The notes beneath the pieces were generated by a model that was given only the letters and a program-made list of their open reading frames with translations, did no database searches and was not told the DNA's origin. The position numbers were made by a program, and so were the translations under genes. Shown piece after piece: positions 3,061 through 63,192 of a stretch of 64,000 nucleotides of DNA. Numbering within the stretch: the first letter of the stretch is position 1; every line of letters starts with the position of its first letter. This stretch comes from Leucoraja ocellata (taxonomy: Eukaryota): NCBI GenBank assembly GCA_036785375.1, contig JAWMAR010000025.1:2542001-2606000 (forward strand), written 5' to 3'.

Positions 3061-3584
3061 AATGTGTAGGAAAGAACTGCAGATGCTGGTTTAAATCTAA
3101 GGTACAAAATGCTGGCGTAACTCAGTGGGATAGGCTGCATCTCTGGAGAGAAGGAATGGATGACGTTTCAGTTGAGACCCTTCTTCAGACTGTCAGGGGA
3201 GTGGGCGGGACAGATAGAATGTAGTCGGAGACAGTAAGACTGGTGGGAGAACTGGGCAGGTGGAAGGGATGGGGAGAGGGAAAGCAAGGGCTATTTGAAG
3301 TTAGAGAAGTCAATGTTCATACCGCTGGGGTGTAAGCTACCCAAGCAAAATATTAGGTGCTGTTCCTCCAATTTGTGCTGGGCCTCACTCTGACAATGGA
3401 GGAGGCCCAGGACCGAAAGGTCAGATTGGGAATGGGTGGGGGAGTTTTAGTGCTGAGCAACCGGAAGATCGGGAAGGTTAAGACAGATTGAGCGGAGGTG
3501 TTCAGCGAAACGATCGTCAAGCCTGCGCTTGGTCTCGCCGATGTTCAGAAGAAACGATCGTCAGGCCCGCGCTTCCTACACATT
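3061..3584 (-). mobile_element. Penelope-like 3' fragment (GIY-YIG C-half plus terminal repeat)
   Basis: Reverse complement matches 55970-56410 (GETKRRL..RFAEHLRS, RKLEEQHLIF.LGS); hammerhead core at 3162-3188. Confidence 0.82.
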
Positions 3585-3949
3585 TACTCTTGGGGGTTGA
3601 GTGGTCTAAGACTTGAGTGTGTCAGGATGTTATTGCTTAATTATTCCAGGTGAAGAGAATATTTTTATTTTGAGAGGAATTATTTTGAGGGATGGTGTAG
3701 AAAGTGTTCTGATATGTGTGGCAACGTTGTTTGGTCAGAGGGGAGCATTGTCTAAAGAGGGACCGTGGCAAGAGTGGTTAAATGTATAGGAGGTGGCAGT
3801 GAGTGAACACATTCACTGCATATGCAAAGCTAGGTATCCTGTGCTAAGTAACATGTCTCGCATTCCAAAGCCTTTCCACTATCTATAAGGCATACAATGG
3901 GAATTTAATGTTATATTCTATACTAGCCCAGATTAAATGCAGCTCTATC

Positions 3950-61500: not shown

Positions 61501-63192
61501 TGCTCTTATACAATTCCAGCCTTTTATGCATTCTCAATTTCCGTTACTCCCGAAGGGAAACAGACTGGGCCATTGTTAGAGGAGAGCTTGATTACATTCA
61601 TTTTTAACTTTAAGAACTAAGACCAGTATTTTGTGAATGAGGAATTACAAATGATGAGGCGCCCAGGTAAATAAGCCTGGTTTCAGGCAGAACTGCCCCT
61701 TGTACGGGCTCCTCCTCCTCCCTTTTTCCTTCCTTCTCCCCCCCACACCCACACCAGTCTGAAGAAGGGTTTTGGCCCGAAACGTCGCCTATTTCCTTCG
61801 CTCCATAGATGCTGCTGCACCCGCTGAGTTTCTCCAGCATTTTTGTGTACCTTTGCCCCTTGTACTCTACCTTGTTGACCGAGCTGGACTGAAGCGAATC
61901 AGTCAATTGCAGTGCGATGCACTGTATGTGTCAGCAGCAAATGGGACCTGCGTGGGGCAGAGAATTGGACCCAAAGTGAAACGGGTTTCTATCACTCCCA
62001 GAACTGCAGCTCGTGTTGTGCTGGCTCAGTGGTTGGAGAGCGAGTAGTGATCAGACAGAATGTGGCTTACGATCAAGGGAGTAAAGTTTGCTTTCCTTAA
62101 CTGGGCTGTGATGGACCTTAGGTACACAAAAAAGCTGGAGAAACTCAGCGGGTGCAGCAGCATCTATGGAGCGAAGGAAATAGGCAACGTTTCGGGCCGA
62201 AACCCTTCTGTTTCTTCCTCCTTTGCATGCCCCTCACCTTCAGAGAGGGAGAGGCAGTGCATTTGGGAGAAATTGTTTATTGGTCATTCGACCTGGTCAT
62301 ATAGGTTAAAGTTTCATCAGTTTCCAGCACTTTAAAACAAAATGTACTCTTTTCTTTTTCAGATAACTCTGGTGGGTCGGGTTATCGACCGCCACCTCGA
62401 ACAAAGGAGGTGTTGATCAATGGACAGACAGTCAAACTCAAATACTGCTTCAGCTGCAAAATGTTCAGGCCTCCACGAACATCGCACTGCAGCCTCTGTG
62501 ATAACTGTGTGGGTGAGTGTTGGTTGAGGGCAGACCCAAGGGCATGGGGCTGGATAAAGATACAAGCAGCATGTCATTGCAGTTTCTGGGGGTTGGCATG
62601 TAATTGGAGTTTCTGAGGGTTGGGTGTGAACTGGTTCCTAAGTGGGCAGGGGATTTGGTGGGACCGGTGCCATTGGGTATAGGCTTGTGGGAGATGGTGG
62701 CCAATGTAAATTGTCACAATTCCCCAAAGTCATTGTGATCACGAAACCGAGTTTAAAAAGGGGCGCACAGTGAGTTGGATGCTGTTGGTCACCGAGGGAA
62801 AGATCAGTCCGAGGACGTTATCATTTTGGGCATTTCTGCAAGGACACCCAGTCGACTGGATTCCCAACTCTTAATTATTATCCACCGGTCTGTTATGAGA
62901 TCATCTAGTGGGATTAAGAAGCAGATGGGTTGGACCATCTCTGCCAGATCTCTGAGGACTGGAAAACGGATTGTGGTTGTTTCAGCCCAGAATTGAAATC
63001 CCTAAGAAGAGGTGTATCTTGCTGTGCTAATGTGAATCTTTGTCCATCTTACAGAGCGATTTGATCACCACTGTCCTTGGGTCGGAAACTGTGTTGGGAA
63101 AAGGAACTACAGATTTTTCTACATGTTTCTGTTGTCGCTTTCCTTTCTAACTGCTTTCATTTTTGCCTGCGTGATAACTCACCTTGCACTCC
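58304..63192 (+). CDS. ZDHHC18: ZDHHC18 palmitoyltransferase, 3'-partial; first 4 coding exons
   Basis: MNVCEYRQI...[70 protein letters not shown]; adjacent to PIGV. Confidence 0.92.
58400..58423 (+). repeat. (CAG)8 coding microsatellite (polyQ)
   Basis: Pure CAG run in ZDHHC18 exon 1. Confidence 0.95.
58637..58778 (-). mobile_element. Short hammerhead/terminal-repeat element with 13-bp TSD
   Basis: ggggatgtgatgt at 58624-58636 and 58779-58791. Confidence 0.85.
59884..60553 (+). mobile_element. CR1-clade LINE 3' end
   Basis: Nearly identical to 47930-48547; ends in ttctatgtttctatg. Confidence 0.92.
61082..61242 (+). CDS. ZDHHC18: ZDHHC18 exon 2
   Basis: cag|CTGTCC...ATAG|gtgaa; [17 protein letters not shown]...[11 protein letters not shown]; 161 bp. 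Confidence 0.94.
61706..61853 (+). mobile_element. Short hammerhead/terminal-repeat element with 12-bp TSD
   Basis: tgccccttgtac at 61694-61705 and 61854-61865; core at 61759-61786. Confidence 0.85.
61759..61786 (+). ncRNA. Minimal type I hammerhead ribozyme motif
   Basis: CUGAAGA A GGGU UUUG GCCC GAAAC GUC. Confidence 0.68.
62363..62512 (+). CDS. ZDHHC18: ZDHHC18 exon 3
   Basis: cag|ATAACT...GTGG|gtgag; [26 protein letters not shown]; 150 bp. Confidence 0.94.
63055..63192 (+). CDS. ZDHHC18: ZDHHC18 exon 4 (DHHC motif)
   Basis: cag|AGCGAT...CTCC|gtaag; [22 protein letters not shown]; 138 bp; not in the ORF track. Confidence 0.95.

What the first reader, a model, noticed from the sequence alone, without database searches (positions are those of the whole stretch)
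3162..61786. Dense family of minimal hammerhead-ribozyme motifs (about one per 3 kb)
Seen: the 28-nt motif CTGAAGA-A-GGGT-NNNN-RCCC-GAAAC-GTY has intact catalytic boxes at 3162(-), 7706(-), 26870(+), 40557(+), 47261(+), 57256(-), 58737(-) and 61759(+), and there are a dozen or more decayed copies. Stem II alternates U-G and U-A at one pair with UUCG, UUUG or CUCG loops. Stem III is only the palindrome ACGU. Established: Penelope-like elements carry minimal type I hammerheads (CUGAnGA / GAAA / NUH) in their terminal repeats, thought to cleave as dimers, and an extra A after A9 is known in a viroid hammerhead. Inference: this is a very high-copy elasmobranch hammerhead family. Stem I is only 2-3 bp, so monomer activity may be low.
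Basis: partly seen in the sequence, partly recalled or inferred. Interest (0 to 1): 0.8.

Follow-up and report, generated by a model that had tools for sequence, protein, structure and literature searches.

The report
Penelope retrotransposon minimal hammerhead ribozyme copies
These repeats are the ends of a known kind of jumping gene, each carrying a tiny self-cutting RNA motif; the motif type is already described, most copies here are broken, and the possibly new clue is that many copies start right at the motif's front edge.

Summary
A family profile finds 36 copies of a ~95-130 nt repeat. 27 keep part or all of the hammerhead, about one per 2.4 kb. The motif lies in the 3' pseudo-LTR of a Neptune-type Penelope-like retrotransposon (PLE). 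Evidence: GIY-YIG and zinc-linker ORF remnants upstream, 11-17 bp target-site duplications, head-to-head pairs and an optional ~30 nt tail. It fits the published PLE minimal-hammerhead consensus, including the extra base after A9 (PMC4209133). So this is a new member of a known kind, probably from a skate relative. Dispersed copies decay at CpGs, and the hammerhead-compatible fold is predicted to be rare; they are probably inert passengers. Cleavage most likely needs a dimer plus element protein (inferred). New in-window clue: 19 of 30 short copies begin within -7..+11 of the first core base, and only 2 of 30 at the cut site.

The parts
61759..61786 (+). Fully intact minimal hammerhead (core, extra A, 4-bp stem II, palindromic stem III); predicted cut between 61786 and 61787; lies sense in an intron of a DHHC palmitoyltransferase gene
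61706..61853 (+). Tail-less pLTR insertion with 53 nt of pyrimidine tract, flanked by a 12-bp target-site duplication (61694-61705 / 61854-61865)
57256..57283 (-). Fully intact minimal hammerhead in a tail-less pLTR insertion (about 57189-57292) with a 12-bp target-site duplication
7706..7733 (-). Fully intact minimal hammerhead, left arm of a head-to-head pair
7606..7910 (.). Head-to-head inverted pLTR pair (7733- with tail, 7817+ without tail and with a decayed core) inside a 14-bp duplication with 1 mismatch (7592-7605 / 7911-7924)
40557..40584 (+). Hammerhead with intact core and stem II but no native stem I 5' arm; the insertion (40557-40679, with tail) starts exactly at the first core base; 17-bp target-site duplication
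47261..47288 (+). Core-intact hammerhead with an A-C mismatch at 10.1-11.1, about 110 nt after the stop of the PLE ORF remnant
46266..47388 (+). 5'-truncated Neptune-type PLE (RT thumb, CX4CX2C linker, GIY-YIG remnant, pyrimidine tract, hammerhead, tail); broken by frameshifts and stops; inserted into the pLTR of an older copy, 11-bp duplication
55388..56414 (+). Second 5'-truncated Neptune-type PLE, tail-less, 11-bp duplication; hammerhead at 56324-56351 has G12A
3065..3572 (-). PLE 3' remnant (GIY-YIG end, pyrimidine tract, hammerhead 3162-3188 with intact boxes but a 1-nt deletion in stem II, tail)
26870..26897 (+). Core-intact hammerhead with an A-C mismatch in stem II; joined head-to-head to 26867- at the quasi-palindrome spanning the stem I arm and first box
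58737..58764 (-). Core-intact hammerhead with an A-C mismatch in stem II; the insertion (58637-58778, with tail, 13-bp duplication) sits in an older pLTR fragment
18521..18714 (.). Head-to-head pair (18584- tail-less, 18600+ with tail) inside a perfect 14-bp duplication; both arms lack the 5' box
2259..2452 (.). Old head-to-head pair joined at the first core base (2372-, 2374+); both have G12A
58912..59077 (.). Old head-to-head pair (58991- starting near the cut site, 58983+ decayed)
63443..63561 (.). Old head-to-head pair (63516- starting at the cut site, 63525+ decayed)
62119..62209 (-). Young tail-less pLTR lacking the first 4 core bases; 97% complementary over 90 nt to the 61759+ copy, 267 nt away
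44148..44704 (+). Old PLE 3' remnant with a long pyrimidine tract and a decayed hammerhead at 44658
45633..46265 (+). Older PLE remnant interrupted by the 46266-47388 element; its pLTR continues at about 47400-47455
47355..47388 (+). Example of the optional ~30 nt tail; it repeats the CCAGCA-spacer-CCTT pattern of the preceding ~29 nt
47312..47371 (+). Candidate downstream helix (8-bp complement between the blocks at about +47..+54 and +103..+110) enclosing a short hairpin; little covariation
978..60958 (.). Other decayed or truncated solo pLTR copies: 978+, 9558-, 17959-, 21215-, 37119-, 37882+, 38698-, 39287+, 43328+, 44910-, 48670+, 55102+, 60845+

Best explanation
The motif is the minimal type I hammerhead of the pseudo-LTR (pLTR) of a Neptune-type Penelope-like retrotransposon that spread in several waves in this genome. 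SHOWN: position about 110-140 nt after the GIY-YIG stop in three long copies; match to the published consensus; insertion with target-site duplications; two alternative 3' ends; CpG decay after insertion. INFERRED: in the partial-tandem master transcript, two motifs pair through the 4-nt palindrome and cut 3' of GUC/GUU, and only with help from the element's own protein, because stem I is 2 bp and competing folds dominate. Reverse transcription starts internally at one of two sites, about +94 or +124 from the first core base, mainly on uncut RNA, and often ends at the ribozyme's 5' edge. This yields ~100-130 nt solo or head-to-head copies, which are passengers without a dimer partner and lose the motif by mutation.
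For: ORF remnants align to full-length RT + GIY-YIG proteins over thumb, linker and endonuclease (E 1e-45; 42% identity; GIY-YIG and RVT_1 Pfam hits in 2 of 3 long homologues scanned). Duplications of 11-17 bp flank 8 insertions; an exact match of 12 nt or more occurs in 75 of 5000 random flank pairs. Their 10 ends split 5 with tail and 5 without, and both duplication-bounded inverted pairs have the tail on one end only, as described for PLEs (10.1101/2021.04.23.441226 and PMC3846280, passages). The published consensus has the same boxes, extra base, G10.1-C11.1 pair and palindrome; the Acropora Neptune motif has the same 4-bp stem and 4-nt loop. Across 5 hand-assigned groups, 0 of 12 non-CpG conserved hammerhead columns vary against 22 of 60 flank columns (Fisher p=0.013). 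23 of 42 substitutions at the 16 conserved positions are CpG transitions. The hammerhead-compatible fold is 6.4-7.9 kcal/mol above the ensemble for the 4 best copies once 45 nt from the core start are included; the palindrome duplex is worth only -1.7 to -3.5 kcal/mol. A lizard PLE hammerhead cut only in the presence of its protein, and uncut RNA was the main insertion substrate (PMC11167929); a Schistosoma monomer was inactive and its dimers weak (PMC4209133).
Against: No cleavage data exist for this family. Selection tests are weak: with CpG columns included, 2 of 16 vs 24 of 64 (p=0.075); on a tree, internal vs terminal changes in core vs flank gave p=1.0, 0.46 and 0.13 and p=0.22 for non-CpG columns. 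The copy set and alignment ends are biased towards core matches. The oldest group has G12A and G16.2A as majority states, which could be a ribozyme-dead lineage that kept moving. Stem II has no two-sided covariation, and RNAalifold found no consensus structure. The modelled double hammerhead (-7.3, or -13.3 without stem I) is less stable than the best cofold (-18.8 kcal/mol). No full-length or tandem master element is in the window, and the RT core was not seen.
Confidence: 0.65

Rival explanations
1. The motif descends from a hammerhead and sits in the PLE pLTR, but cleavage is dispensable here. It is kept as part of the internal promoter or start site, as a protein-binding element, or by inertia.
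For: Only 2 of 30 short copies begin within 1 nt of the cut site (0.85 expected). Group D is majority G12A. Stem I is 2 bp and the active fold is rare. Catalytic mutants did not impair insertion in vitro in the lizard element. Naiad and most Chlamys PLEs lack hammerheads yet proliferate.
Against: All catalytic positions, the G10.1-C11.1 pair and three CpGs are retained in the young group and in most older groups, while the flanks diverge. The same core is kept across PLEs of many phyla.
Confidence: 0.25
2. Dispersed copies are active ribozymes in host pre-mRNAs (monomers or trans dimers) and affect genes such as the DHHC gene that contains 61759+.
For: 61759+ is fully intact and sense in an intron. 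The density is high, so many transcripts carry the motif. Domesticated intronic hammerheads are known in amniotes (PMC6155905, passages).
Against: No stem III or tertiary loops are present. 4 of the 8 box-intact copies have a broken stem II, and decay is CpG-driven. 61759+ can form a 90-bp duplex with 62209- in the same intron. The other intact copies are antisense to the ARID1-type gene (7733-), outside identified genes or truncated.
Confidence: 0.07
3. The resemblance to a hammerhead is chance within an unrelated SINE-like repeat.
For: No Rfam hammerhead hit and no consensus fold.
Against: Every feature of the published PLE consensus is matched at the expected place behind a GIY-YIG ORF. Descriptor background is 7 hits in 50 shuffles.
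Confidence: 0.02

Closest known systems
Minimal hammerheads (min-HHR) in pLTRs of metazoan Penelope-like elements (PMC4209133); closest listed example: Acropora digitifera Neptune
   Same: Same boxes, unpaired base between 9 and 10.1, G10.1-C11.1, palindromic C-G at 15.2/16.2, pyrimidine-rich 5' flank, position after the ORF, mostly single truncated copies, opposite-strand pairs.
   Different: Stem I is only 2 bp, at the short end of the listed range (2 bp also in Drosophila virilis, Culex, Oikopleura), and stem II only 4 bp. No cartilaginous fish appears in supplementary file 2 (file 1 could not be searched). Local density of descriptor hits is 4 per 64 kb, against about 4,000 and 9,000 per genome reported for coelacanth and Xenopus tropicalis; descriptors differ, so this is not like-for-like.
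Poseidon element of Anolis carolinensis (PAc; PMC11167929)
   Same: Hammerhead in the pLTR, two internal RT start sites defining a tail, insertion into its own pLTR, genomic copies that keep the uncut ribozyme.
   Different: Different PLE clade. In PAc the ORF starts inside stem II; here no conserved reading frame was found through the pLTR.
Neptune clade PLEs (10.1101/2021.04.23.441226)
   Same: C-terminal GIY-YIG with CCHH residues, CX2-5CxxC linker, partial tandems and inverted 5'-truncated copies, tail on one end.
   Different: The RT core is absent from the window, so clade placement rests on the linker only. The microsatellite insertion bias was not evident in the 8 duplication-bounded sites.
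Non-LTR retrozymes (bioRxiv 10.64898/2026.07.22.740005)
   Same: Non-coding, PLE-derived, type I hammerhead; reported in the one chondrichthyan sampled.
   Different: Retrozymes are head-to-tail arrays; these copies are solo or head-to-head, with target-site duplications. Whether that chondrichthyan family is this one could not be checked because the supplements are closed.

Membership tests
PLE minimal hammerhead | CUGANGA, GAAA and NUH boxes in type I order | tested here: met
   8 of 20 copies with the 5' box have all core bases
PLE minimal hammerhead | Unpaired base between positions 9 and 10.1 | tested here: met
   A in 25 of 25 covering copies; consensus
PLE minimal hammerhead | G10.1-C11.1 pair and a helix II | tested here: met
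   G-C 15, G-U 3, unpaired 3 of 21 scored rows; stem II 87% paired, no two-sided covariation
PLE minimal hammerhead | Palindromic 15.2-16.2 in place of helix III | tested here: met
   C in 26 of 30 and G in 20 of 31; departures are mostly CpG transitions
PLE minimal hammerhead | Short helix I (consensus 3 bp; published examples 2-6 bp) | tested here: met
   2 bp, 80% of cells paired; at the lower end of the listed range
PLE minimal hammerhead | Location in the terminal repeat after an RT-GIY-YIG ORF | tested here: met
   Linked to ORF remnants at 47261+, 56324+, 3188- and 44658+
PLE minimal hammerhead | Self-cleavage as a dimer or with protein help | not testable with these tools
   Folding only
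Neptune-type PLE | C-terminal GIY-YIG endonuclease with CCHH residues | tested here: met
   the window fragments themselves gave no Pfam hit (0 of 2)
Neptune-type PLE | CX2-5CxxC linker between RT and endonuclease (shared with Nematis) | tested here: met
   Present in the 46266 element and decayed in the 55388 element; regex match in 7 of 8 long homologues
Neptune-type PLE | RT-domain phylogeny | not tested
   The RT core is not in the window; no labelled reference set was available
Neptune-type PLE | Inverted 5'-truncated copies, one-sided 30-40 nt tail, target-site duplications | tested here: met
   6 head-to-head pairs, 8 duplications, tail about 30 nt
Neptune-type PLE | Insertion bias for microsatellites | tested here: inconclusive
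   None of the 8 duplications is a microsatellite; one old pair abuts a CA/TA tract
Canonical type I hammerhead (Rfam models) | 6-bp helix I, loop-loop tertiary contact, helix III | tested here: not met
   No Rfam hammerhead match; 2-bp stem I and no stem III
Non-LTR retrozyme | Head-to-tail tandem units each with a hammerhead | tested here: not met
   None of the 15 tandem-repeat rows contains the motif; copies are solo or inverted

The most novel reading that the evidence does not exclude
The short copies are not random truncations but run-off cDNAs. The pLTR transcript starts at, or is processed to, an initiator-like TCAGT directly in front of the first box, so the ribozyme is the 5' end of the RNA and has only 2-3 nt for stem I. 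The RT starts at two tandem copies of a CCAGCA-spacer-CCUU signal, which explains the tail. That would allow a genome-scale test of what PLE hammerheads do.
Probability: 0.3. Interest if true: 0.55.

Novelty: new member of a known kind. Interest (0 to 1): 0.3.

Why it matters
The ribozyme type and its link to PLEs have been in print since 2014, so the find mainly extends the host range. It has some value because the function of PLE hammerheads is stated to be unclear, and this family offers many young insertions with exact ends and several subfamilies. The pile-up of 5' ends at the ribozyme's front, and the lack of ends at the cut site, bear directly on whether cleaved RNA is ever the template. 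It also matters for annotation: such a genome may hold very many hammerhead-like hits that are inert.

Tried and rejected
Rfam: no hammerhead at either threshold; the hairpin hits at 7680-7870 are the inverted pair itself. GTDB genomes: 0 exact matches to the motif. Eukaryotic DNA could not be searched, and the metagenome and viral contig collections stayed unchecked, so there is no genome-wide count or covariation. Pfam gave no hit on the 4 repeat-derived ORF fragments. RNAalifold on 24 of 36 copies gave no structure. The first pair count had the downstream helix one column out of register; one search is the corrected one. The idea of a selected 'lock' sequence 3' of the cut was rejected: only 1 of 11 copies beat shuffled tails, and that one only through its inverted partner. 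ORF start inside the pLTR is not supported: the frame from the ATG near +50 is open in the young group but has a stop in two other copies, and none of 155 homologues aligned in sense. Cleavage-derived 5' ends are not enriched. An intron ending just before the core, as in D. virilis, stays open but is weak: pyrimidine tract plus CAG is present, but a GT donor at the ORF stop was seen in only 2 of 5 copies. Tree-based selection tests were not significant; 11 of 36 copies were left out as too short. One p-value printed ('HHR CpGs only') used miscounted inputs and is not used. Organism names for the unnamed homologues could not be obtained. The dimer-cleavage paper by Lunse et al. (PMC5785218) is not held; I saw only its title and a review's summary, so whether it lists cartilaginous-fish examples is unknown.
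Full report
OBSERVATION. The pattern is real: 4 exact and 14 near matches against none in shuffles. A profile built from window copies finds 36 copies covering 5.05% of the window, and none in the reversed window. 4 also have a perfect stem II and palindrome: 7733-, 40557+, 57283-, 61759+. 40557+ begins exactly at the first core base and has no native stem I arm. 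A generic descriptor gives 5 hits, 4 of them family copies, against 7 hits in 50 shuffles. Rfam has no hammerhead match.

CONTEXT. The window carries plus-strand exons of an ARID/BAF250 gene, a PIG-V gene and a DHHC palmitoyltransferase. The order ARID1A-PIGV-ZDHHC18 in vertebrates is recalled, not from a call. The closest named proteins to the repeat's ORF remnant are from Leucoraja erinacea at 71-77%, so a skate relative is likely; the species was not determined.

WHAT THE REPEAT IS. In four copies (3188-, 44658+, 47261+, 56324+) the motif follows a pyrimidine tract and the end of a broken ORF. The two longest remnants align to full-length RT-endonuclease proteins over thumb, cysteine linker and GIY-YIG domain (E 1e-45 and 1e-17; Pfam on the homologues; 4065 relatives at E<=0.001). 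The CX2-5CxxC linker marks Neptune and Nematis PLEs (10.1101/2021.04.23.441226, passages). Eight insertions have 11-17 bp target-site duplications. Six head-to-head pairs occur. 3' ends fall in two classes about 30 nt apart, 5 and 5 among the 10 duplication-defined ends, and both duplication-bounded inverted pairs have the tail on one end only. These are the described PLE hallmarks. Two of the eight insertions landed in an older pLTR, in line with the reported tendency of PLEs to insert into or beside earlier copies.

COMPARISON WITH THE PUBLISHED MOTIF. Cervera and De la Pena (PMC4209133; I read main-text parts 1-2 of 4 and supplementary file 2 parts 1-2 of 3) list four recurring features: consensus families, a base between positions 9 and 10.1, the G10.1-C11.1 pair, and palindromic 15.2-16.2. 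All are present here. Their Acropora Neptune entry has the same 4-bp stem and 4-nt loop, and 2-bp stems I occur in three listed species. They also describe single truncated copies and opposite-strand pairs. No shark, skate or chimaera name occurs in file 2; file 1 was not searchable. Searches for hammerhead with shark, elasmobranch, Callorhinchus, or Penelope with skate found no report of this family (listings only, apart from PMC6155905, where 'shark' is only the shape simile). A 2026 preprint (parts 1-2 of 5 and passages) reports hammerhead retrozymes in its one chondrichthyan; its supplements are closed and may list this family. Lunse et al. was not held.

SELECTION. Individual copies decay: 23 of 42 substitutions at the 16 conserved positions are CpG transitions, and G12 is A in 9 of 27. 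Between five hand-assigned groups (mean within-group difference 0.07 to 0.30), 0 of 12 non-CpG conserved columns vary against 22 of 60 flank columns (p=0.013); with CpGs it is 2 of 16 against 24 of 64 (p=0.075). Tree-based tests on 25 of 36 copies were not significant. Seeds were chosen by the core, so there is ascertainment bias. The oldest group is majority G12A. The evidence leans towards selection in source elements but is not decisive.

FOLDING. No copy folds as a hammerhead on its own. For the four best copies the hammerhead-compatible ensemble lies 1.4-3.7 kcal/mol above the total with 6 nt after the cut site, and 6.4-7.9 with more flank. The purine-rich core pairs with downstream pyrimidines, and the young group has a competing hairpin over G12-A15. 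This is no stronger than shuffled flanks, so it is not claimed as a selected switch. The palindrome duplex gives -1.7 to -3.5 kcal/mol, and the drawn double hammerhead is less stable than the best cofold. Nearest-neighbour energies omit core tertiary contacts, so these are guides only. In the Anolis element the hammerhead cut only with protein, mutants inserted normally, and no RNA-seq ends were seen at the cut site (PMC11167929, parts 1-2 of 4).

NEW CLUES. (1) Of 30 short copies (4 long and 2 interrupted copies left out), 19 begin within -7..+11 of the first core base. Uniform simulation over -55..+50 never exceeded 17 in 20000 runs. For the 18 solo copies the count is 12 (p=0.00025). Only 2 of 30 begin at the cut site, against 0.85 expected. 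Boundaries were refined by hand, only some are fixed by duplications, and detection favours longer copies. The young group's starts spread from -53 to +23. Candidate causes are a transcript start at the initiator-like TCAGT (an initiator-like site in a pLTR is noted in PMC3846280, passages), RT stalling at the pyrimidine tract, or annealing at the quasi-palindrome that joins two of the inverted pairs. In D. virilis the start is 46 nt before an intron that ends just ahead of the ribozyme (PMC2377424, passages), so a start at the ribozyme itself would differ. (2) Each 3' end lies 16-25 nt after the start of a CAGCA motif (9 of 10 ends; the motif is deleted in one), and the tail repeats the preceding unit, suggesting two tandem RT-start signals. 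(3) An 8-bp downstream helix is 91.5% paired in tail-bearing copies, but has only 1 two-sided change.

MECHANISM AND VERDICT. Identity as a PLE pLTR minimal hammerhead is close to certain. The most likely working model (0.65) is cleavage only as a protein-assisted dimer in master transcripts, with dispersed copies inert. A catalytically dispensable motif is the main rival (0.25). The one intact sense-strand intronic copy, 61759+, has no intact same-strand neighbour within 900 nt and can pair over 90 nt with 62209-. Novelty: new member of a known kind. Interest 0.3, or 0.55 if the run-off reading holds genome-wide.

Noticed in passing
window 15957-34518 (+), 52363-53622 (+), 58304-63272 (+): Host genes: ARID/BAF250-type exons, a PIG-V mannosyltransferase exon and DHHC palmitoyltransferase exons, all on the plus strand.
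   Followed up: partly
window 47750-48385, 59880-60460, 40688-41033: Fragments of a second retroelement family with RT C-terminal-like sequence (CR1-like by recall; no Pfam hit); 47931-48230 and 59893-60192 are 96% identical. The 40557+ copy is inserted into one of them.
   Followed up: no
three CpG sites inside the hammerhead, 27 copies: Decay is skewed: 25 G-to-A against 11 C-to-T on the sense strand; over four CpGs 30 vs 17, p=0.08. May reflect strand-biased deamination or a G12A sub-lineage.
   Followed up: partly
window 47220-47260 and equivalents (56324+, 3188-, 61759+, 7733-): Pyrimidine tract plus CAG ends 1 nt before the first core base and looks like a splice acceptor; a matching donor at the ORF stop is seen in only 2 of 5 copies.
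   Followed up: partly
window 26718-26811: A 19-bp tandem repeat (4.9 copies, 97%) has grown out of the 3' end of the 26867- pLTR copy.
   Followed up: no
window 57275-57292 (-): A few extra bases between the target-site duplication and the start of the 57283- copy repeat part of the first box; possible re-priming.
   Followed up: no
window 57556-58250: GC-rich stretch with a 94-bp tandem duplication (95%) just upstream of the DHHC first exon; not identified.
   Followed up: no
window 51814-52284 and 41572-41955: Related-looking repeat fragments (translations share the 'LCVLYY..GG' region) that belong to neither family studied.
   Followed up: no
window 35508-35658: Assembly gap of 151 N.
   Followed up: no
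P0001, P0002: Two Leucoraja erinacea gene models carry this GIY-YIG remnant fused to unrelated sequence (DUF4518; an RT fragment), probably mis-annotated repeats.
   Followed up: no
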